In this document: positions 1-9,315 of the stretch, piece after piece
How the letters are laid out: the number at the start of each line of letters is the position of its first letter
Position numbering within the stretch: position 1 is the first letter of the stretch
Assembly: GCF_056746865.1 (NCBI RefSeq)
Contig: NZ_CM163382.1
Length of the DNA stretch: 64,000 bases
Direction: 5' to 3' (one strand)
The notes under the pieces: model-generated
What the model was told of the DNA's origin: nothing
What the model saw: only the letters and a program-made list of their open reading frames with translations
Databases searched by the model: none
Program-made: the position numbers and the translations under genes

Positions 1-718
1 GTGCTTCCGCCTGGAGGTAACGCCGTCCGTCAGTTTTGACCTCACATTTCATGCGATGGTTGCCACTCCAGCCCAGATGTACGGCCCACACCTCGCCCTG
101 CTGTTCTGAGAAACCGGGGGCACCGGCAATCAGTGCCGGAAAATGCTCATGGGACGTGCGGCCCCGGCGGTTCTCCAGCACAAAACCGTCATGTGTGAGA
201 CGGACCCTGTGCGGCTGAAACTCACGAGTCCAGCGTCCGTGGAAGGCCATGACTTCCTCTGCCCTTTCAGCCACAGGGAGCGTGATGGCGAAGCGGTTCA
301 CCTGCCAGTCCCCTTCACGGAGGTTCGTCAGGGCATGACGCATCTTCAGCACACCGGACGATGTCAGCACCAGTTCACTGACCATGCGCAGACCCGCCAC
401 TGCATCCTCACTGGTCAGGGTGAGTGATTCTCCGGCCTGTACCACGCTGATGGTACGGAACACAGGGGACGCATCCAGCCCGTTGCGGTGTCCCTCCAGC
501 CCCGGCGAGCCAAAAAGTCCCGCGCCGTTTTCGGCCATCAGCGTCAGTGGGGTGTCGGTATCCAGACGACCATTCGCAACCGGCCTTTCCAGGCTGATAC
601 AGTCATCCGGTGAAAAGTGTTTCAGGGTGGATCCCCACCAGACAATCTCTGCATACGGGTGGGTTTTAATAATCAGGTCTGAGTGGGGACTGGTCAGCCT
701 GCGGTACATCGGTTCCAT
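1..718 (-). CDS. alpha-galactosidase-like protein (RafA-like), 5' portion only; runs off the left window edge
   Basis: Open frame on the minus strand from ATG at 716-718 (translation MEPMYRRLTSPHSDLIIKTHPYAEIVWWG...) with GGAG about 8 nt upstream, translated by hand and open to position 1. Not in the ORF track because it has no stop in the window. Family assignment is from context (LacI-type repressor plus twin operators directly upstream) and an RRGRTSHEHFP-type motif recalled from GH36 enzymes. Confidence 0.5.
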   Translation of the reverse strand, partial: MEPMYRRLTSPHSDLIIKTHPYAEIVWWGSTLKHFSPDDCISLERPVANGRLDTDTPLTLMAENGAGLFGSPGLEGHRNGLDASPVFRTISVVQAGESLTLTSEDAVAGLRMVSELVLTSSGVLKMRHALTNLREGDWQVNRFAITLPVAERAEEVMAFHGRWTREFQPHRVRLTHDGFVLENRRGRTSHEHFPALIAGAPGFSEQQGEVWAVHLGWSGNHRMKCEVKTDGRRYLQAEA

Positions 719-755
719 AAGACATCTCCGTTTTCGGGTATGCCTTACTGTTGAT

Positions 756-790
756 CCGAATCGTTTCGGATAGCAACCGAAACGATTCGA
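756..790. promoter_or_regulatory. twin palindromic operator-like sites (ccgaatcgtttcgg / ccgaaacgattcga) between the repressor gene and the alpha-galactosidase start
   Basis: Two 14-bp near-palindromes at 756-769 and 777-790 that are reverse complements of each other (13/14), separated by 7 bp, 38-70 bp upstream of the ATG at 718. Confidence 0.55.
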
Positions 791-811
791 ATTTGTGAGC
801 GGGATTAAAAA

Positions 812-1822
812 TCAGGCGGAGGGAGCAAGCGTTGTCTTGCCAGGATGAAATTCCGGCTGCCAGAGTACTTGTAGCATTTCAGGTGAAACATTCGTGACCA
901 GCTGGCGTATCATGTCGTCAATCTGACGACCGACGCGATGTCGTGTTGACTGAAGAACTGCAGCCACATCCTGTTCAATAATACTGTCCTGCGGCAGACC
1001 ATCATAAACCACAAGAGAGACGGCATCCTCTCCGGACAGATGACCGGATAACTGCAGCGACATGGCCGCGCCATCACCGATCAGGTCACTGTCGGTAATA
1101 ATGGCCGTCGGGGGAAGCGGAAGTGACATTAACTCAGTCACTGCCTGGAAACCTGAGCGTCGGGTGGGAGAGACCCGGCGTAGCCAGGTCTCAGGCAGAC
1201 CATGTTCACTCAGGGCATCGCGCCATCCCTGACGTCGTGCAGTGACATAGGCACGGGAGTTGTCCTCACTCAGCAGGGCAATTCGCTGATGGCCCAGGGC
1301 AATCAGGTGCTGTGTGGCCTGCCAGGTTCCTGCATGGTTATCAAAGTCAAACCAGGCACAGGGAAGACCGGACGGCACCTGACCGAGTGCCAGAAACGGA
1401 ATACCGGCCTCCTGCAGGTGTGTAAGACGCGGGTCATTATCCATCGTGTGCGCCACGATAAGGGCATCAACCCGGCGGCTTTCGACCAGACGCATATAGC
1501 TGTGGCTGTCAGCCCGTTCATCATCGGCTATCAGCAGTAAGTCAATATCATGGCGGGCCAGTTCCCGGCTGATACAACTGACCATATCCACAAACACACT
1601 ACTGCTGAACAGTACAGCATGTTCAGGGAAGACCAGGCCGACCGCATCGGTTTTACCGGTTTTGAGACGTCTTGCCAGGGTATTCGGGCGATAACCACGA
1701 CGCCGAGCTTCCGCTTCTACACGTGCACGGGTCGAAGCGGAAACGTCCGAAAATCCGCCAAGCGCCCGGCTGACTGTGGTGACAGAGATCCCGAGTTCGG
1801 CGGCGATAGCCTTGAGTGACAT
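812..1822 (-). CDS. LacI-family transcriptional repressor (RafR-like), 336 aa
   Basis: ORF 812..1822; N-terminal LacI-type HTH (LKAIAAELGISVTTVSRAL); AGGAG 7 nt upstream of the ATG. Confidence 0.75.
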   Translation of the reverse strand: MSLKAIAAELGISVTTVSRALGGFSDVSASTRARVEAEARRRGYRPNTLARRLKTGKTDAVGLVFPEHAVLFSSSVFVDMVSCISRELARHDIDLLLIADDERADSHSYMRLVESRRVDALIVAHTMDNDPRLTHLQEAGIPFLALGQVPSGLPCAWFDFDNHAGTWQATQHLIALGHQRIALLSEDNSRAYVTARRQGWRDALSEHGLPETWLRRVSPTRRSGFQAVTELMSLPLPPTAIITDSDLIGDGAAMSLQLSGHLSGEDAVSLVVYDGLPQDSIIEQDVAAVLQSTRHRVGRQIDDMIRQLVTNVSPEMLQVLWQPEFHPGKTTLAPSA

Positions 1823-2156
1823 ATTTTCTCCTGCGGATAACTGAACAGCCCTGTCCCTGATGCGGGTGATCCGGGCAACAAACCTGACAGAGACGCCTGC
1901 ATAAGTGGTCGCGCTGTACCAGTATGAGCCTCCATCATCCTGATTTGTGTATTAACTTTCAATACCGGAGGACGATTTGATTACCGGTTGTTAGCAGGAG
2001 TGCGAATATTAGACCGACGGTGGAGATCTAAGACTCAGTGAGCATAGCGATACACTATATTACTGTAATTAAGCCAGTAAACTTCCTGTTCACTGGCTTA
2101 AACGCTAATGATGTATGCAGTTGAACAAGCTTTTAAACTAATGATTAATTGATATA

Positions 2157-3245
2157 TAGACTGGCCCCCTGAATCTCCAGACAATCAATATCACTTAAAT
2201 AAGTGATAGTCTTAATACTAGTTTCTAGACTAGTCATTGGAGAATAGATGATTGATGTCTTAGGGCCGGAGAAACGCAGACGGCGTACTACACAGGAAAA
2301 GATCGCTATTGTTCAGCAGAGCTTTGAACCGGGAATGACGGTCTCCCTTGTTGCCCGGGGATGGGGAGTAAGCTTAGTCAGCCGTTGTCTCCGGGTGTCG
2401 CGTGCGCAGTTGCACGTCATTCTCAGACGAACCGATGACTGGAAAGATGGTCGCCGCAGCCGTCACTCAGATGATACGGATGTGCTTCTCCGTATACACC
2501 ATGTTATCGGAGAGCTGCCCACGTATGGTTATCGTCGGGTATGGGCGCTGCTTCGCAGACAGGCCGAACTTGATGGTATGCCTGCTATCAATGCCAAACG
2601 TGTTTACCGGATCATGCGCCAGAATGCGCTGTTGCTTGAGCGAAAAACCGCTGTACCGCCATCGAAACGGGCACATACTGGCAAAGTGGCCGTGAAAGAA
2701 AGCAATCAACGATGGTGCTCTGACGGGTTCGAGTTCCGCTGTGATAACGGAGAAAAACTGGGGGTCACGTTCGCGCTGGACTGCTGTGACCGTGAGGCAC
2801 TGCACTGGGCGGTCACTACGGGCGGCTTCGACAGTGAAACAGTACAGGACGTCATGCTGGGAGCGGTGGAACGCCGCTTCGGCAGCGAGCTTCCGACATC
2901 TCCAGTGGAGTGGCTGACGGATAATGGTTCATGCTACCGGGCTAATGAAACACGCCAGTTCGCCCGGATGCTGGGACTTGAACCGAAGAACACGGCGGTG
3001 CGGAGTCCGGAGAGTAACGGCATAGCAGAGAGCTTCGTGAAAACGATAAAGCGTGATTACATCAGTATCATGCCCAAACCAGACGGGTTAACGGCAGCAA
3101 AGAACCTTGCAGAGGCGTTCGAGCATTATAACGAATGGCATCCGCATAGTGCACTGGGTTATCGCTCGCCACGGGAATATCTACGGCAGCGGGCCAGTAA
3201 TGGGTTAAGTGATAACAGGTGTCTGGAAATATAGGGGCAAATCCA
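2157..3245 (+). mobile_element. IS2 derivative with an internal deletion of about 242 bp (1089 bp here against about 1331 bp for intact IS2); no 5-bp target-site duplication
   Basis: Left end TAGACTGGCCCCCTGAATCTCCAGACAA at 2157 and right end GGGGCAAATCCA ending at 3245 match the IS2 termini as I recall them. Flanks gatata / atggcg are not a direct repeat. Confidence 0.85.
2248..3234 (+). CDS. IS2 transposase, in-frame fusion of the first ~37 codons of orfA (InsC) to orfB (InsD) created by the internal deletion; 328 aa
   Basis: ORF begins [37 protein letters not shown] (InsC N-terminus) and continues [20 protein letters not shown]... (InsD). The junction lies at a GCCCGG motif; the full identity of the short repeat on the two sides is from the remembered IS2 sequence. 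Confidence 0.8.
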
Positions 3246-3440
3246 ATGGCGCAGATACGCTTGCGGATCGATACCATTCAGACAGCAGGTCCGTTCACTA
3301 CCGTAATCGCTGCCGAAGAACACATTGATTGCCCCTCAATAATCCTGCCGTCAACGTCAAAATTGCTGGTCGGGCTCGACTTATTTAATTGTGTAAACAG
3401 GGCCTCTCAGCGAAAGGCCCTTATGCATCACCTGACGTCG

Positions 3441-4007
3441 TTAAAAGTCACTACACCCAAGATGACGTTCAATGGCACCATGCGATTCAATGTAAGCCTG
3501 GGCCGTCTGTTCCAGTACACCAGGCTCAGCGTTGTATGTGTTAGCTGCATCAAATACCAACGACAGCACTTCAGGATACACAACCAGATGTGTAATGGAG
3601 TTATCTTCACCCAATACTTTTCCCCACGCCTGCTCAATCAGATTTCTGAGAGCCACCACCTCACGACTCTTACACCAGACATCGTTATTAAGTAGCAGTA
3701 CCATAAGATAAGGAGTGGTATCGTTAGCCACAGCTTCCCTACTCCAGAGATAATATAAAGGGGCGGGCTCAACAGATTTATCTTTACGTCGCTTGCACTG
3801 CAAATATTCAGAAATTAGTCTATGCAGTTCACCAGTAAAATCAGCCATCAGAGAGGGAATTGCCTTGTTCATACCTGGGCAAGGTATTAATTTAAATTGT
3901 AATAATTTAATTTTAGGATGTGTAGCTGCAGCCCGATACAGAGTTGCAAGGACATACTTTTGCCAGAGGGCGTTACAGGAAAGCTTAACGTTTGATTCTG
4001 TATACAT
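3441..4007 (-). CDS. hypothetical protein, 188 aa, co-transcribed with the upstream Gp2-like gene (27-bp gap)
   Basis: ORF 3441..4007; AAGGTG 8 nt upstream of the ATG; no recognisable motif. Confidence 0.5.
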   Translation of the reverse strand: MYTESNVKLSCNALWQKYVLATLYRAAATHPKIKLLQFKLIPCPGMNKAIPSLMADFTGELHRLISEYLQCKRRKDKSVEPAPLYYLWSREAVANDTTPYLMVLLLNNDVWCKSREVVALRNLIEQAWGKVLGEDNSITHLVVYPEVLSLVFDAANTYNAEPGVLEQTAQAYIESHGAIERHLGCSDF

Positions 4008-4034
4008 AATAAATCACCTTACAGTTACAATAGG

Positions 4035-4649
4035 TCAAAAACCGCTGTAGCCAAAGTTACGCTGGCCTGATGCTTTAGTGTCGAGCTTCGTCAGATAATC
4101 CAGACGTGCCAATAAGCGCTGATATTGCTCAGGGAAATCAGGATCGTTAATATCCAGGATGTAACGTCCATTAGCAGGGAAATGAACTAGTCCCTGGTGA
4201 TCTTCCAGTTCTAACCCTAAGGCACTGTACCAGGCTCCGGTAATTAACCCTCTCAGGGTGTCAGAGCGCTCATAGTCTCCCAGGTGGTAATAGGCGTCTT
4301 TGTTAAAAAAAAGGCAGACGTGATAATGACATTTAAAGGACTGCGTATATTCTTTCGCCCAGATAATACAAACCGACGTTGCGTAGGTGCGTTTGCCTTG
4401 TTGTTTTTTACGGTGTTGATCTGCATTAATTTTCGCATTCAGCGAGTTACGGAAACGAGATATCTCTCCGGGACTCAGGTTAGGAAAACAGGTAATGGTA
4501 TCCCCGTTGTCAATCACGGGAGGATAATGGAGATCCACCCGTATTGCCGTTATTCTGGGATGTTTCTGGAAGAGGTTATTCACCTGGTTTCTTATTTTTA
4601 ACCCGTGAGCCTCATGACATTCACCGTAAAGAGTTTCAATCGTAATCAT
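4035..4649 (-). CDS. YagK/YfjJ-type (inovirus Gp2-like) protein with an HUH-type motif, 204 aa
   Basis: ORF 4035..4649; motif KCHYHVCLFF (H-hydrophobic-H) followed by tyrosines (YYHLGDY); AAGGA upstream. Family call is from memory of similar proteins in P4-like cryptic elements. Confidence 0.55.
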   Translation of the reverse strand: MITIETLYGECHEAHGLKIRNQVNNLFQKHPRITAIRVDLHYPPVIDNGDTITCFPNLSPGEISRFRNSLNAKINADQHRKKQQGKRTYATSVCIIWAKEYTQSFKCHYHVCLFFNKDAYYHLGDYERSDTLRGLITGAWYSALGLELEDHQGLVHFPANGRYILDINDPDFPEQYQRLLARLDYLTKLDTKASGQRNFGYSGF

Positions 4650-5030
4650 GTTAATATTCCTTTTGCTTTCAGAGATAAGCTAATAGTTAACCTACCCAAT
4701 ACACAACAGAAGCAGATATTAATATTCGTATCAGTAGTTCCCAGAGGGATATATAACCCTCTGGGCGTCAATTAAGAAAAACGCTACTGCCTATTGTTAC
4801 ATTAGAGAACAGGATGATGTTACACAGTTACATTAGAACGTTCTAAAACATTAAACAGAGTTATGATCTACACACAACTAATTATTTGGTATCAGAATAC
4901 CATTAGCTCTATTAGTACATCATATCCATCATTACACATATACTATACATCACAGATATAATATATATTACCTATCCAACGCACATGTATTTATAACTCC
5001 ATTGCCAATAGCTACAAGGACTATAAAATG

Positions 5031-5591
5031 TTACTCTGCAGTTAGATCAACAATACCTTTATCCCAGTGTCTTTTTACAGTGGATAAACTGATGCTTAAT
5101 TTTCTGGCTGTTTGTGACTGACTGAACCCCTGCAATTTCAACTGTCTGATATTTTTACTATGAATACTCCCTTCTTTCCTTCCTGGTTTTCTTTTAATTT
5201 TCCGGATACTGATGTCGGGAATTTTTCCTCTAATATCTGTAGGTAAAATCATCCCGGTGAGTACCACAGGAATATCATCACCATCCGGCAACTCTGATGA
5301 CGTAAAAAAGCAAATATTAATACCTTGTCTGATACTTAAAGATAAAACCTCCTGTATTTTTTCCGGCGTATTACCAAAACAAGTTAACGATTTAGTAATC
5401 AGAATATCACCCCTTTGCATATCCTGCGTCAGGAGTCGAACTAACCGTTTTCTGTCTGCCAGAGTATAATCCGGGCGACCCAATTCGCCTGTTAACTGCA
5501 ATAGTGGTTCTTTAAAATATCTCTGAATCATGGATTTTAAGCGATTAAGTTTTGACCATTTTTCAGAGTCTATGTATGCAAAACTCGCCAT
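5031..5591 (-). CDS. serine-recombinase (resolvase)-like DNA-binding protein, probably catalytically inactive, 186 aa
   Basis: ORF 5031..5591. GDILITKSLTCFGNT aligns by eye to the resolvase GDxLVVxxLDRLGRS motif but lacks the two Arg; N-terminus FAYIDSEK instead of YxRVSTxxQ; C-terminal HTH (TARKLSISLSTVKRHW). Confidence 0.5.
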   Translation of the reverse strand: MASFAYIDSEKWSKLNRLKSMIQRYFKEPLLQLTGELGRPDYTLADRKRLVRLLTQDMQRGDILITKSLTCFGNTPEKIQEVLSLSIRQGINICFFTSSELPDGDDIPVVLTGMILPTDIRGKIPDISIRKIKRKPGRKEGSIHSKNIRQLKLQGFSQSQTARKLSISLSTVKRHWDKGIVDLTAE

Positions 5592-5812
5592 AATGCCTCA
5601 AACTGGTGTCATGAATTAATTATTGAACCTGTTTTTTCCTGAGTCGCATTACTCTTTTCTAAGGGAGGCTCTCCAGATACATCGGAAAAGTACTCGATAA
5701 AAGAGTTGGCCACTCCCGGGTAATGATTGCTCTCTTTAACCTCAGAAAGCGGTTTCTGTTCATCATTTACACCACGATTTCTGGGTTATGAATAAATCTA
5801 CGCGGGCCATAA

Positions 5813-6559
5813 TCATTCATCTTCAAATGGGTTAATAATAATAACATCTCCACCTGTTCTGGAACTTTGTGAAACTTCCTCTGTTCTCAGAACAGGCACT
5901 ATTACAGCCTTATTATTGATATAAAAAATCGGAATATGAAAAGTACAAAATCCTGTACTACGAATCTGATGTCGCCTCACTGTTTCTTTCGTACCATACT
6001 CAATCAACTCATCTATCGGCAGGCAAACTGAATTGCAAAAGTCAAAAAAATAATCCCCAAAAACACTGGTTTTAATCAGAATGGTTTTATAAAACCCTCC
6101 TGCACGATTCAGGGTATGGGAAACTTTTCTGTTCGTGTAAATACAAATTGCCTTCTCAACTTTATAATATTCCAGCATTAAGGTCGCATTCTCTTTAATT
6201 CCCTTTTTCTCTGCAACTCCCATAGCATTTCTGGTGCTTTCATGAGGAAATATCTTTCTATCGAGAACATCATATTCATATTTGATATGCGATTTATAAA
6301 TGCTATGAAAAAACTCTCCTTTTGTTATTTCAGGCTTTGTCCGTTGCACAAATGGTTCCTCATTAAAAAACTGACGTAGCTTATCCTCTATATCAGTTAT
6401 AGCAGCAATATTTTCATTTATCCTGTTTAAAACAGGAGCCCCTAGCTTTAAACACTCTTTAATCGCTGCTGAAAATGAGCATTTTTTTAAATGCTGATAC
6501 TTTTTAATTACATCAGCTTCATATGTTTCTGCAAGAGAGAAAGAGACACGTTTCATCAT
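5813..6559 (-). CDS. hypothetical protein, 248 aa; N-terminal ~45 aa resemble a ribbon-helix-helix DNA-binding fold, C-terminal ~200 aa unassigned
   Basis: ORF 5813..6559; strong RBS AAGGAG 5 nt before ATGATG; AT-rich coding sequence; N-terminus KRVSFSLAETYEADVIKKYQ...FSAAIKECLKLG has a strand-helix-helix pattern. Confidence 0.55.
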   Translation of the reverse strand: MMKRVSFSLAETYEADVIKKYQHLKKCSFSAAIKECLKLGAPVLNRINENIAAITDIEDKLRQFFNEEPFVQRTKPEITKGEFFHSIYKSHIKYEYDVLDRKIFPHESTRNAMGVAEKKGIKENATLMLEYYKVEKAICIYTNRKVSHTLNRAGGFYKTILIKTSVFGDYFFDFCNSVCLPIDELIEYGTKETVRRHQIRSTGFCTFHIPIFYINNKAVIVPVLRTEEVSQSSRTGGDVIIINPFEDE

Positions 6560-6621
6560 GAAACTCCTTTTTAATTATAAAATTAAAATATAGAAATATA
6601 TATTATTCTGATACTATAAGG

Positions 6622-6849
6622 TTAATACTGACTAATCCACCACAATAGATCACTTAATAACCACCCACAGGATTTCTTTCCAATAGTTTTACGTGGCGGG
6701 AATTTTCCTTCACGTTCCAGTTTCCAGGCTTGTGAACGAGAAATAGACGTAATTTTCTGGCGTTCCTTTTCTCGTACCAGTCTGTCACAGGTGTATCCAT
6801 AGATCTTCAAAATTGATAAACGGTTCTCATCTCTTAACGGCTTCCACAT
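6622..6849 (-). CDS. AlpA-family prophage transcriptional regulator / excisionase-like protein, 75 aa
   Basis: ORF 6622..6849; SRSQAWKLEREGKFPPRKTIGKKSCGWLLSDLLWW resembles the AlpA HTH core; AGGAGA RBS. Confidence 0.65.
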   Translation of the reverse strand: MWKPLRDENRLSILKIYGYTCDRLVREKERQKITSISRSQAWKLEREGKFPPRKTIGKKSCGWLLSDLLWWISQY

Positions 6850-7628
6850 ATTGCTCTCCTTATATATTCATGATTTTCAGATTGTATATGCATGTGAGCT
6901 GCTCAAATCACTACATCTATCTGTAGTGGTATGCTGTTGAACAGCACCAGCAACTCACGAGCAAAACAATACATTTGCACAACCAAGAAATCAAATTGCG
7001 AGAAATGATTTAATTAACTGACTTCTAATAACACAATAACAACAAAGAAAGTCACAATATAAAAATAACTTAAACAATGCTTTTTGGTATACAAAATAAA
7101 AATCAAAATCACAATATTCGTAGGTTATTTTATGCAGACAAAAACAAAAAAAATCTTGTTATAATCTATGATATCAAGAGGAGGGGTAGTGACCAAAAAT
7201 TCTCCCCAGAAAAGCCCCCACAACATTAGTTTGAAAACGTGACGAAGTTCACAAAATTATCTTCTGGCGATAATAGAACTTGTAAGAGGGAGTTGATTTT
7301 TGCCAACTTTCTAAAGCTAAAGTGCAGACAAAAGATAATAATTGAATGAAAACGATACATATTTTCAGATGAAAGTGACGTGACTGTAGAGGGCTATAAC
7401 CGTAAAATCATTTGCGTCCTGAGCAATATGCAACAAAAGGGAATGCTCGTAAAAAAATCAGGAATAAACGCTAAGGATATCGTATTAGATTCAGCATCGT
7501 ATAATGCCACTGCATAACTGATTCCCATTTCGTAGAGGCTGTTAACTCTGTATCAATGTCCTGACAAAGGACTGTATCAAGTTTCTCTACTGGAAACAGC
7601 TATGCAATAGACGGAAGAATTTAACATT

Positions 7629-9233
7629 ATGGTAACTAAAAAGGTAAAAACAAACCACCCGTACTATCGTGTTTTATCCGGCACCTCCATGCCGTTTCCC
7701 CACATACATGAAGCTGTTTCCGAACAGTTGCTTCTACTCATTTTCAAAGCACGCAGATTGTATCTGGATCCAGAATATCGTCCTTGGTTTGATGAACAAC
7801 ATCGGATTCTCTCGGCATTACGCGCTAACACAAAACTCCAAAGTATTTTAGAGAAAAACAGAGAGAACTACTCCATAAGTGAGACCGATAATCCACTATC
7901 TAAAGATCTGTATGCTGCTTTTCAGGTTATGTGCCATTTATACAATGGTTTTGATAACAGACTCGTCAGCCTGAAAACCTGGGGAGATATGAACAGGGAA
8001 CCAACAGCAAAATTTGTCGGCCAAAATAGTGGTGGCTGGAAAACACCTGAGATGGAAGAATTCGTCAGAAACGATTTGTTCAATATTCTGACAGATTGTA
8101 AAGCTCATTGCTCACCACTTCCCGCTCTGGTTCGACAAGGATATTGCCATCAGGATCTTTCTGTTGCGCACTCATGTACTAAAGAATTACTGGAACAACT
8201 GAACCGATACCATCAAATTGATGAATCAGCGATACTTGCCAGAACCCTTGGTTTGGCTATTAACAACTGCTATCACTCAGAAACAGAGATTCCTGAATGG
8301 CTTTCTCCTTTTGAAAATGAATACAAAAGTCCCTGGAATTGTGAGAAACCAGATACTAACGATGTGAGTAAACTTAGAAAACAATTGCTAACAATCGGGC
8401 GTACAGAATTCGTGGACAAAATGTTTTCGCTAGCCAACAAAAATGCAACAAAGATAATATATGATGGATACGTTAAACTTTATGCTCTGGAAATATATGA
8501 ATGGTTAAATAAATTAGTGCAATATTTTAAAGGAAATGATTTTATTCGTTACACCTGGAAGTTCACAACAATTATTTCCGATGAAAGTGACACGATTGAA
8601 AACACCACCGCATGGGAAAAAGACTATTGTCAAATCACTATACAGCGTGATGAACTTCTGAAACTGATTTATACCAATACCCTGCAGGATGCAGCAATGA
8701 ATCTTGCTGATTGCCTGCAACAGGCATACACAGAACCGTTAAAAATGGAAATAAATTATCCAGGAATAAACATTGATGCAAAAGAGCGTAAAATTAGAAA
8801 ATCTATTGAATTCAGGAGCGAACTGAATAACTTCACAAACATCATGAAACAACTGGAAATATTTGAAAAATGGTATAACGCCAATAAAATTCTGTTGGTA
8901 AGTAACAAAAAGATACGTACAGAAAAGATTGACGTGAATATTCGTCTTGCAGGACTAAAAGGCTATGATCTGAATGAAGGTATACCTGATGGTCAGGGAC
9001 GCAGAATTAAAGATGGTGTAAATGAACTTGTCAAGGCAGATGGCAGTCTACAACTTCCACAAGATATCAGTGACACTTCGCTTAACCGTTACCGTCAAGC
9101 AGTTCAACACATTATTAAGGATGAGATCGACACGTTGCTGATAGCACAGAGGGAAAAAAATAAAATAAATCCATATAGCGAAGATAGATACTCGATACGA
9201 CCTTTATGGGGAAAATGTCTGGTCGAACAGTAA
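7629..9233 (+). CDS. hypothetical protein, 534 aa, no domain recognisable by eye; integrase-proximal cargo
   Basis: ORF 7629..9233; GGAAG upstream of the ATG; AT-rich; preceded by a 780-bp AT-rich non-coding region. Confidence 0.6.
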   Translation: MVTKKVKTNHPYYRVLSGTSMPFPHIHEAVSEQLLLLIFKARRLYLDPEYRPWFDEQHRILSALRANTKLQSILEKNRENYSISETDNPLSKDLYAAFQVMCHLYNGFDNRLVSLKTWGDMNREPTAKFVGQNSGGWKTPEMEEFVRNDLFNILTDCKAHCSPLPALVRQGYCHQDLSVAHSCTKELLEQLNRYHQIDESAILARTLGLAINNCYHSETEIPEWLSPFENEYKSPWNCEKPDTNDVSKLRKQLLTIGRTEFVDKMFSLANKNATKIIYDGYVKLYALEIYEWLNKLVQYFKGNDFIRYTWKFTTIISDESDTIENTTAWEKDYCQITIQRDELLKLIYTNTLQDAAMNLADCLQQAYTEPLKMEINYPGINIDAKERKIRKSIEFRSELNNFTNIMKQLEIFEKWYNANKILLVSNKKIRTEKIDVNIRLAGLKGYDLNEGIPDGQGRRIKDGVNELVKADGSLQLPQDISDTSLNRYRQAVQHIIKDEIDTLLIAQREKNKINPYSEDRYSIRPLWGKCLVEQ

Positions 9234-9315
9234 CTCACTGAGAAAGGGGATAGCAGTTCGCTATCCCCAAAGGAGACTTTCCAGCAAGATCTCAAAAAAT
9301 GAGACACTCAGCAAA

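What the first reader, a model, noticed from the sequence alone, without database searches (positions are those of the whole stretch)
2157..3245. IS2 with an in-frame internal deletion and no target-site duplication, at the junction between the raf-type module and the P4-like module
The element is about 242 bp shorter than intact IS2. The deletion fuses the first ~37 codons of orfA in frame to orfB, removing most of the OrfA DNA-binding region and the frameshift window. The flanks (gatata / atggcg) are not a 5-bp duplication, which suggests IS-mediated recombination or an adjacent deletion joined two previously separate island segments.
Basis: partly seen in the sequence, partly recalled or inferred. 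Interest (0 to 1): 0.5.

Follow-up and report, generated by a model that had tools for sequence, protein, structure and literature searches.

The report
Crippled IS2 copy sealing an island seam
This is an ordinary, dead copy of the insertion sequence IS2, missing 242 internal bases, that marks the join where a raffinose-utilisation gene block was spliced into an E. coli genomic island; it is present unchanged in about 1 in 20 complete E. coli genomes.

Summary
Window 2157-3245 is an IS2 copy of 1089 bp with both terminal repeats intact. It is 96.2% identical to K-12 IS2A and lacks 242 bp (IS2 positions about 189-430). The deletion lies between two imperfect 14-bp direct repeats and fuses OrfA codons 1-37 in frame to OrfB. 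The result is a 328-aa protein equal to OrfAB minus residues 38-118. It has lost the recognition helix, the leucine-zipper-like motif and the A6G frameshift window, but keeps the DDE triad. There is no 5-bp target duplication (ATATA versus ATGGC).

Relatives without the IS show that the right flank continues uninterrupted in raf-less islands. The left flank is the discrete end of the raf block, which also occurs on plasmids. A 12,155-bp segment (IS1414 fragment, raf genes, IS2) replaces 967 bp of island backbone. Nineteen genomes keep a full-length IS2 at the same raf junction, with right junctions 474 and about 489 bp deeper in the island. This nested pattern fits IS-mediated adjacent deletion.

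The deleted copy occurs in 249 of 5426 complete genomes, nearly always once per genome; sampled copies lie at the raf junction, and no new insertion site was seen. It is a frozen relic and of low interest.

The parts
2157..3245 (+). IS2 deletion derivative, 1089 bp, of a divergent IS2 allele
   Evidence: Pairwise alignment to K-12 IS2A gives 96.2% identity and one 242-bp gap. NCBIfam 'IS2 transposase TnpB' scores 688 bits against a cut-off of 597.
2157..2198 (+). Left terminal inverted repeat (IRL), intact. It carries a T at IS2 position 29 where K-12 IS2A has C.
   Evidence: Exact match to the IS2 IRL pattern, and the only one in the window. The extent of about 42 bp is from my own knowledge of the IS2 literature, not measured here.
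3205..3245 (-). Right terminal inverted repeat (IRR), intact
   Evidence: Exact match to TGGATTTGCCCCTATATTTCCAGACA on the minus strand, and the only one in the window. The extent of about 41 bp is from my own knowledge of the literature.
2248..3234 (+). Fused orfA'-orfB reading frame of 328 aa, equal to OrfAB lacking residues 38-118. The DDE residues D159, D225 and E261 are intact.
   Evidence: Pfam finds half of HTH_Tnp_1 (residues 8-42, model positions 2-36 of 75), HTH_21, rve and rve_3.
2345..2358 (+). Deletion junction: a single 14-bp copy, CCCTTGTTGCCCGG, of what are two direct repeats 242 bp apart in intact IS2
   Evidence: A 40-mer across this junction is found in 249 of 5426 complete E. 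coli genomes.
1823..2156 (.). Non-coding end of the raf block. Its last base, 2156, is a sharp homology boundary in every context examined.
   Evidence: Found in 258 genomes, plus plasmids. It ends at the same base next to IS2del, full-length IS2, a different IS, or no IS.
812..1822 (-). LacI-family regulator at the proximal end of the raf operon (rafR-type). Alpha-galactosidase, MFS permease, GH32 invertase and a porin lie further left, partly outside the window.
   Evidence: RefSeq annotation of identical DNA; LacI-family matches in NCBIfam.
3246..3323 (-). 78-bp remnant of an IS66-family transposase C-terminus (..NGIDPQAYLRH), cut by the IS2 right end
   Evidence: Annotated as a partial CDS. 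It is longer in the IS-less relatives (177 bp, 'transposase domain-containing protein') and is annotated 'IS66 family transposase' in another genome.
3441..4007 (-). YagK/YfjJ-domain gene of the integrase island. Positions 3720 and about 3735 are where the IS2 right end sits in genomes that keep a full-length IS2.
10042..11358 (-). Tyrosine integrase at the island end. Island homology ends at about 11601, next to nfeF.
   Evidence: The match to integrase model PRK09692 is distant: 75.6 bits against a cut-off of 434.

Best explanation
The element is a defective, non-autonomous copy of IS2 (IS3 family) that acts as the physical seam between two DNA blocks of different origin. The steps below are marked as shown or inferred.

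1. Shown: a 12,155-bp segment replaces 967 bp of the backbone of a tyrosine-integrase genomic island. The segment consists of a truncated IS1414, the raf raffinose-utilisation genes, and IS2 with its left end against the raf block.

2. Shown for the flanks, inferred for the mechanism: the IS2 left flank is the donor junction (raf terminus | IRL). The right flank is a junction to island DNA inside an old IS66-like remnant. No 5-bp duplication is therefore expected. Either IS2 carried the raf block in by replicon fusion or recombination between IS2 copies, or IS2's right end made an intramolecular attack that deleted neighbouring island DNA.

3. Shown: where the IS2 stayed full length (19 genomes), its right junction lies 474 or about 489 bp further into the island. 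This fits further adjacent deletions.

4. Shown for the endpoints, inferred for the mechanism: in the main lineage, a 242-bp deletion occurred between two 14-bp imperfect direct repeats inside IS2. Replication slippage or short-homology recombination is the likely cause.

5. Shown for what is lost, inferred for inactivity: the deletion removes OrfAB residues 38-118. These include the HTH turn and recognition helix, the leucine-zipper-like oligomerisation motif, and the frameshift window. Published point mutations in these regions already abolish transposition, so the 328-aa product should not bind IS2 ends or multimerise.

6. Shown for the counts, sampled for the locations: the copy has been frozen since. 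It is carried passively with the island, nearly always once per genome, in 249 complete E. coli genomes and at more than one chromosomal site.
For: Anatomy of the deletion. Domain content: half HTH_Tnp_1, HTH_21, rve, rve_3; IS2 TnpB 688 bits; IS2 TnpA only residues 1-43. Domain map of IS2 OrfAB and loss-of-function mutants in helix 3 and the LZ-like motif: PMC3219604. Right-flank empty site. Replacement of 967 bp by 12,155 bp. Left flank ending at the same base on plasmids with another IS or none. Same right junction with a non-deleted, 5'-truncated IS2 in raf-less islands. Full-length IS2 at the raf junction in 19 genomes, with nested right junctions at window 3720 and 3735. Frequencies: deletion junction in 249 genomes and 257 places, all chromosomal; left junction in 232 genomes; right junction in 168 genomes. 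Same island at nfeF/aer (199 genomes contiguous with the window) and near ypjC/ssrA.
Against: The order of events is not established. The IS2 copies at these junctions are different alleles or mosaics, so the full-length copies are not simple parents of the deleted one unless gene conversion by other IS2 copies is invoked. A different IS2-group element sits at exactly the same raf base on plasmids, which this model does not explain. One record (PN43, L012) has the deleted copy with a different right flank, and 8 extra places exist in 249 genomes, only one of which I inspected (a resistance-gene rearrangement). The inactivity of the 328-aa protein is inferred, not tested. Its junction recreates an HTH-like consensus, so some DNA binding cannot be excluded.
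Confidence: 0.8

Rival explanations
1. Homologous recombination between two separate IS2 copies created a hybrid IS2 and joined the two blocks. One copy sat next to rafR on a plasmid or other replicon. The other had inserted, with its own ATGGC duplication, in the island's IS66 remnant. No transposase action is needed at the joining step.
For: The right junction exists without raf and with a different IS2 allele (L014, L015). IS2 copies at these sites are allele mosaics. An ISx/IS2 hybrid on pF1022-2 shows that such recombination happens at this very locus.
Against: No genome was found with a complete IS2 at the 3246 site flanked by an ATGGC duplication. The raf-less copies are 5'-truncated and could derive from a raf-bearing ancestor. 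Three nested right junctions within 500 bp would need three independent same-orientation IS2 insertions under this model.
Confidence: 0.35
2. The 1089-bp element is a non-autonomous but still mobile derivative, comparable to a MITE. It would be moved in trans by transposase from full-length IS2 copies, and it reached this position by transposition.
For: Both terminal repeats are intact, and most E. coli genomes contain full-length IS2 that could supply transposase. One record has a different right flank.
Against: There are 257 places in 249 genomes, a median of one per genome, all chromosomal. The numbers closely track those of the raf flank (258 genomes) and the left junction (232 genomes). 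There is no target duplication. The one multi-copy genome inspected is a rearrangement, not a new insertion.
Confidence: 0.04
3. It was a simple IS2 insertion whose 5-bp duplication has decayed by point mutation, so the two flanks were always contiguous.
For: None beyond the general possibility.
Against: Zero of five flank positions match (ATATA versus ATGGC). The flanks are 99-100% identical to relatives in which each continues into unrelated DNA.
Confidence: 0.01
4. The fused 328-aa protein is retained because it does something. It could be a frameshift-independent truncated transposase that inhibits or modulates IS2 transposition, or a recruited DNA-binding protein with a chimeric HTH.
For: The ORF is intact in every copy inspected and is annotated as a CDS, not a pseudogene. 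The junction joins two HTH-like motifs in phase (SLVAR-QHGV and ALIAR-GWGV) and recreates an HTH-like consensus. The DDE triad is intact.
Against: The copies are 99.9-100% identical, so intactness carries no information about selection. The oligomerisation motif is gone. There is no expression or functional data.
Confidence: 0.05

Closest known systems
IS2 (IS3 family, IS2 group), e.g. IS2A of E. coli K-12 MG1655 (NC_000913 381260-382590)
   Same: Same terminal repeats, same gene order, 96.2% nucleotide identity over 1089 aligned bases, and the same DDE triad. NCBIfam 'IS2 transposase TnpB' scores above its cut-off.
   Different: It lacks 242 bp (IS2 positions about 189-430). It therefore has no separate orfA or orfB, no A6G frameshift site, no recognition helix and no LZ-like motif. 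It has no 5-bp target duplication. It is a divergent allele, with about 4% differences spread along its length.
IS-mediated adjacent deletions and IS-bounded cargo blocks in genomic islands. This is classical IS behaviour, reviewed for large rearrangements in PMC11708052, which I listed but did not read in detail.
   Same: One IS junction is constant while the other is variable, nested and colinear. The IS is retained and has no target duplication.
   Different: The cargo block is not a composite transposon. Its other boundary is a truncated IS1414, not a second IS2. The mechanism is inferred from comparative structure only.
Engineered frame-fused IS2 OrfAB (A7G mutant) used by Lewis et al. 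(PMC3219604)
   Same: Both give a single orfA-orfB reading frame that needs no ribosomal frameshift.
   Different: The engineered protein is full length (about 409 aa) and active. The natural fusion here lacks residues 38-118 and is predicted inactive.
Plasmid-borne raf operon of E. coli (pRSD2-type; rafY porin, Ulmke et al. 1997, cited in PMC12987596)
   Same: The gene set to the left of the IS2 is the same: LacI-type regulator, alpha-galactosidase, permease, invertase and porin.
   Different: Here it is chromosomal, inside an integrase island, and is bounded by IS2del on one side and an IS1414 fragment on the other.

Membership tests
IS2 (IS3 family) | IS2-type terminal inverted repeats at both ends (TAGACTGGCCCC... 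and ...GGGGCAAATCCA) | tested here: met
   Exact matches at 2157 and 3245, unique in the window, with 0 expected by chance. The ends align with those of IS2A.
IS2 (IS3 family) | High nucleotide identity to reference IS2 (same IS name rather than a new IS) | tested here: met
   1048 of 1089 aligned bases match, 96.2%. The neighbouring plasmid element 'ISx' is only 69% identical to IS2A and would not qualify.
IS2 (IS3 family) | DDE transposase catalytic core (rve) with D, D, E residues | tested here: met
   rve at 1.1e-18 and rve_3 at 3.9e-18. D159, D225 and E261 align with D240, D306 and E342 of OrfAB (residue numbers from PMC3219604).
IS2 (IS3 family) | Two overlapping frames, orfA and orfB, with a programmed -1 frameshift at A6G | tested here: not met
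   The A6G site (IS2 409-415) and the 3' two-thirds of orfA lie inside the 242-bp deletion, leaving a single fused frame. This marks it as a deletion derivative, not a functional member.
IS2 (IS3 family) | Complete N-terminal H+HTH DNA-binding domain and LZ-like oligomerisation motif | tested here: not met
   Only OrfA residues 1-37 remain. The Pfam HTH_Tnp_1 match covers model positions 2-36 of 75, and NCBIfam IS2 TnpA covers 1-43 of 121 at 75 bits against a cut-off of 229.
IS2 (IS3 family) | 5-bp direct target duplication flanking a simple insertion | tested here: not met
   ATATA versus ATGGC, with no repeat of 5 bp or more at boundaries shifted by up to 8 bp. K-12 IS2A shows ATTAC on both sides in the same alignment.
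IS-mediated adjacent deletion series | One constant IS junction, with variable, colinear, nested junctions on the other side and no duplication | tested here: met
   The left junction is identical throughout, while right junctions fall at window 3246, 3720 and 3735. Direction and order of events are not established.
Composite (IS-flanked) transposon | Two copies of the same IS bracketing the cargo, with a target duplication outside | tested here: not met
   The other boundary of the raf block is a 5'-truncated IS1414. There is no second IS2 end in the window.
Mobile non-autonomous (MITE-like) IS derivative | Multiple dispersed copies at unrelated sites, each with a target duplication | tested here: not met
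   257 places in 249 genomes, median 1 per genome, in numbers that closely track the raf flank and left junction. The extra places were not examined exhaustively.

The most novel reading that the evidence does not exclude
The base after ...TTGATATA at the end of the raf block may be a preferred docking point for IS2-group elements. IS2, a 69%-identical relative ('ISx') and an ISx/IS2 hybrid all abut exactly the same nucleotide in the same orientation, while a Salmonella plasmid has no IS there. One possibility is that IS2-group transposases target the end of a resident related IS, as reported for IS911 (from memory, not checked here). Successive elements would then replace one another at a fixed junction and repeatedly move the raf block between plasmids and islands. 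Separately, the 328-aa fusion with its chimeric HTH might retain DNA binding and modulate IS2 activity.
Probability: 0.08. Interest if true: 0.4.

Novelty: already known. Interest (0 to 1): 0.14.

Why it matters
It matters little on its own. Defective IS copies at block boundaries are the normal scars of island assembly. This one is already annotated as 'IS3 family transposase' in hundreds of RefSeq genomes.

It does have practical value. The 40-bp deletion junction and the two flank junctions are clean, single-copy markers for tracking the raf-bearing island, which is carried by about 4.6% of complete E. coli genomes. Many of the matching isolates listed come from poultry and pigs. rafY and hsdR have been reported as chicken-associated genes in E. 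coli (PMC12987596).

The locus also gives a small natural series (deleted copy, full-length copies, nested junctions, allele mosaics). That series illustrates how an active IS keeps eroding its neighbourhood while an inactivated copy freezes it.

Tried and rejected
Shifted target duplication: I looked for one at boundaries moved by up to 8 bp. Only a non-adjacent 4-mer turned up.

Second IS2 end in the window: none found.

tRNA or tmRNA attachment site: ARAGORN found none in the 64-kb window. The island's attachment gene, if any, lies outside it.

raf terminus in other species: I scanned 100,044 species-representative genomes for the 22-mer at the raf terminus. The only hit was a chance match in an AT-rich Clostridia MAG with no other similarity to the window.

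Salmonella IS-less junction as the ancestral empty site: the DNA beyond the junction occurs in no other PLSDB plasmid, so this cannot be decided.

Literature: searches for this IS2 derivative or for a raf island bounded by IS2 found nothing specific.

Mobile non-autonomous element: rejected on copy number and location.

Assembly artefact: rejected, because the identical structure is present in 249 independent complete genomes.

First NCBIfam call: it failed on a one-base coordinate error and was repeated successfully.

Full report
**What is there**

Window 2157-3245 begins with the IS2 left end (TAGACTGGCCCCCTGAATCTCC...) and ends with the IS2 right end (...ATATAGGGGCAAATCCA). Each end occurs only once in the 64-kb window, with none expected by chance.

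I aligned the element to IS2A of E. coli K-12 (1331 bp). The alignment has one gap of 242 bp, and 1048 of the 1089 aligned bases are identical, 96.2%.

**The deletion**

In intact IS2 the deleted segment is bracketed by two imperfect 14-bp direct repeats. These are CCCTCGTTGCCCGG at IS2 189-202 and CCCTTATTGCCCGG at IS2 431-444. The window keeps one copy, CCCTTGTTGCCCGG, at 2345-2358.

That copy differs by one base from each canonical repeat. It cannot be produced by a simple crossover between the K-12 versions. The parental allele was therefore probably slightly different, and the exact crossover point cannot be fixed.

Both repeats are read in the same codon phase. The first encodes S-L-V-A-R in OrfA and the second A-L-I-A-R in OrfB. 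They are 242 bp apart, which is 3n-1. A deletion between them therefore automatically supplies the -1 shift that normally needs ribosomal slippage.

The result is the 328-aa ORF at 2248-3234. It consists of OrfA residues 1-37 joined to OrfB from residue 11, which is OrfAB lacking residues 38-118.

I used the domain map of Lewis et al. 2011 (PMC3219604): helix 1 at 13-26, helix 2 at 32-38, turn at 39-42, recognition helix at 43-58, then the leucine-zipper-like motif, with catalytic D240, D306 and E342.

- The fusion keeps helices 1 and 2.
- It loses the turn, the recognition helix, the whole LZ-like motif and the A6G slippery site (IS2 409-415).
- It keeps the DDE triad at D159, D225 and E261.

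Pfam sees half of HTH_Tnp_1 (model positions 2-36 of 75), then HTH_21, rve and rve_3. NCBIfam's 'IS2 transposase TnpB' scores 688 bits against a cut-off of 597, while 'IS2 repressor TnpA' matches only positions 1-43 of 121.

In the same paper, single substitutions in helix 3 (R50H, W49R) and in the LZ-like motif (Q79L, L83V, K89M) abolish transposition. Removing both regions should therefore inactivate the protein. This is an inference, not a test.

**No target duplication**

The flanks are ...TTGATATA on the left and ATGGCGCAG... on the right. No direct repeat of 5 bp or more exists at boundaries shifted by up to 8 bp. In the same alignment, K-12 IS2A shows its ATTAC duplication on both sides.

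**Where the two flanks come from: the right flank**

In raf-less relatives of the island (strains MMC-J-0085 and DP051; L007, L008), the sequence runs straight through the insertion point as ...CACAGAAT|ATGGCGCAGATACG.... It continues leftwards as the C-terminal remnant of an IS66-family transposase and then a hypothetical gene.

I compared L007 with a genome matching the first 25 kb of the window at 99.9% (F374, L004). A 12,155-bp segment replaces 967 bp of island backbone. The segment is a 5'-truncated IS1414, the raf genes and this IS2.

**Where the two flanks come from: the left flank**

The 334 bp beyond the LacI-type regulator end at exactly the same base, ...TTGATATA, in four other settings.

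- In a Salmonella Saintpaul IncFII plasmid it is followed by unrelated DNA, with no IS called and no similarity to IS2 or the window beyond the junction.
- In six E. coli plasmids in PLSDB, two of which I read, it is followed by a different IS2-group element that I call 'ISx' (69% identical to IS2, starting TGAGCTGGCCCCC).
- In plasmid pF1022-2 that element's last ~140 bp are IS2-like, making it a hybrid.
- In 19 chromosomes it is followed by a full-length IS2.

So the two flanks of the window's IS2 belong to different blocks, and the IS is the joint between them.

**Variants of the joint**

The right junction (IS2 end | ATGGCGCAG) is present in 168 genomes. These include raf-less islands near yghD, where the IS2 is not deleted internally but is cut off at position 170 and fused to an EAL-gene fragment. 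An IS2 without the 242-bp deletion has therefore occupied this junction.

The 19 genomes with a full-length IS2 at the raf junction have right flanks that map to window 3720 (L017, L018) and about 3735 (L019). Both points lie inside the YagK/YfjJ gene, 474 and about 489 bp deeper in the same backbone.

A constant junction on one side, with nested colinear junctions on the other and no duplication, is the classical footprint of IS-mediated adjacent deletion. Repeated recombination between IS2 copies is the alternative.

A table of variable sites shows that the IS2 copies at these junctions are mosaics of the K-12 allele and divergent alleles.

- T at position 29 is retained in all raf-junction copies.
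- The truncated raf-less copy keeps divergent bases only in its last ~50 bp.

IS2 copies in these genomes have therefore exchanged sequence, which blurs simple parent-offspring relations.

**Is the deleted copy mobile?**

A 40-mer across the deletion junction, designed so that intact IS2 cannot seed a match, occurs in 249 of 5426 complete E. coli genomes. That is 257 places, all chromosomal, with a median of one per genome.

These numbers closely track those of the raf flank (258 genomes) and the left junction (232 genomes). The one multi-copy genome I inspected is a resistance-gene rearrangement.

One record (PN43, a 353-kb 'plasmid' typed as non-mobilizable) has the deleted copy with a different right flank. 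I found no evidence of transposition. I did not inspect every copy.

The island with its IS2 relic sits next to nfeF/aer in the window and in 199 genomes. It lies near ypjC/ssrA in strain RCAD0514. The relic is evidently carried along when the island moves.

**Verdict**

The nested junctions lean towards adjacent deletion for at least part of the history, but the data do not separate the two for the founding event.

This is a known kind of object, a deletion derivative of a well-studied IS at a mosaic boundary. RefSeq already annotates it as an IS3-family transposase. Interest is low.

The one unexplained point is that two different IS2-group elements, and a hybrid of them, abut exactly the same base of the raf block.

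**Context**

Many of the matching isolates listed come from poultry and pigs. A recent study reports rafY and hsdR as chicken-associated E. coli genes (PMC12987596). The junction sequences could therefore serve as markers for this island.

Noticed in passing
window 2156/2157; L005 4335-5671 (pF1022-2); L006 4087-~5430 (p135-1): On E. coli plasmids a different IS2-group element ('ISx', 69% identical to IS2, left end TGAGCTGGCCCCCTGAAACACC) abuts exactly the same last base of the raf block, in the same orientation as IS2 does in the chromosome. It also lacks a target duplication. Independent insertion at one base seems unlikely, and targeting of a resident related IS end is one possibility.
   Followed up: partly
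L005 ~5530-5671 (pF1022-2): The ISx copy on pF1022-2 is a hybrid. Its last ~140 bp are 96-100% identical to IS2, including the IS2 right end, whereas the p135-1 copy has its own right end (...GGGGTCAAGAACA). This shows recombination between ISx and IS2 at this locus.
   Followed up: partly
L011 5657/5658 (Salmonella Saintpaul plasmid NZ_CP022492): The raf block ends at the same base with no IS and continues CCTCCTGTTGTAATG.... The following 300 bp occur in no other PLSDB plasmid, so it is unclear whether this is the ancestral empty site.
   Followed up: partly
window 2338-2385 (protein residues 31-46); IS2A OrfA 33-46 and OrfB 6-19: The two 14-bp repeats that bracket the deletion encode similar peptides in the same codon phase (SLVAR-QHGVAASQL in Orf[15 protein letters not shown] in OrfB). 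This suggests a second, paralogous HTH-like motif at the start of OrfB. The fusion joins helix 2 of the first motif to the turn and helix of the second, recreating an HTH-like consensus.
   Followed up: no
window 3246-3323 (minus strand): The IS2 right end sits inside a remnant of an IS66-family transposase C-terminus (..NGIDPQAYLRH|). The remnant is itself truncated on its other side, so the seam is a stack of IS scars.
   Followed up: yes
window 3720 and ~3735 (inside the YagK/YfjJ gene 3441-4007); L017-L019: In 19 genomes a full-length IS2 at the raf junction has its right end at these deeper positions, 15 bp apart from each other. The copy at 3735 is almost entirely of the K-12 IS2 allele apart from T29.
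   Followed up: yes
L014, L015 4859-6020 (strains RM10740, ETEC1718): Raf-less islands near yghD carry an IS2 at the identical right junction. It is truncated at IS2 position 170 and fused to an EAL-domain gene fragment. It is 99.5% identical to K-12 IS2 apart from divergent bases in the last ~50 bp.
   Followed up: partly
window 1-11601 versus 11602-64000: The island ends about 240 bp beyond the integrase gene, next to nfeF, and no tRNA or tmRNA gene is present anywhere in the window. The same island segment (window 1-11601) lies near ypjC/ypjA/ssrA in strain RCAD0514. The attachment site was not identified.
   Followed up: partly
L012 15746 onward (NZ_MG591698, strain PN43): This is a 353-kb record labelled as a plasmid and typed non-mobilizable. 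It carries the whole raf block and the deleted IS2, but with a different right flank (TTCATCAATACC...) followed by a LacI-type regulator, a maltoporin and galactan-utilisation genes. It may be a rearranged or mis-assigned chromosomal segment.
   Followed up: no
L001 / L004, upstream of the window start: To the left of the raf block the island holds a truncated IS1414, an IS3-family fragment interrupted by a group II intron (ltrA), further transposase fragments and a type I restriction-modification system. In strain RCAD0514 the hsdR gene of that system is split by ISKpn26.
   Followed up: no
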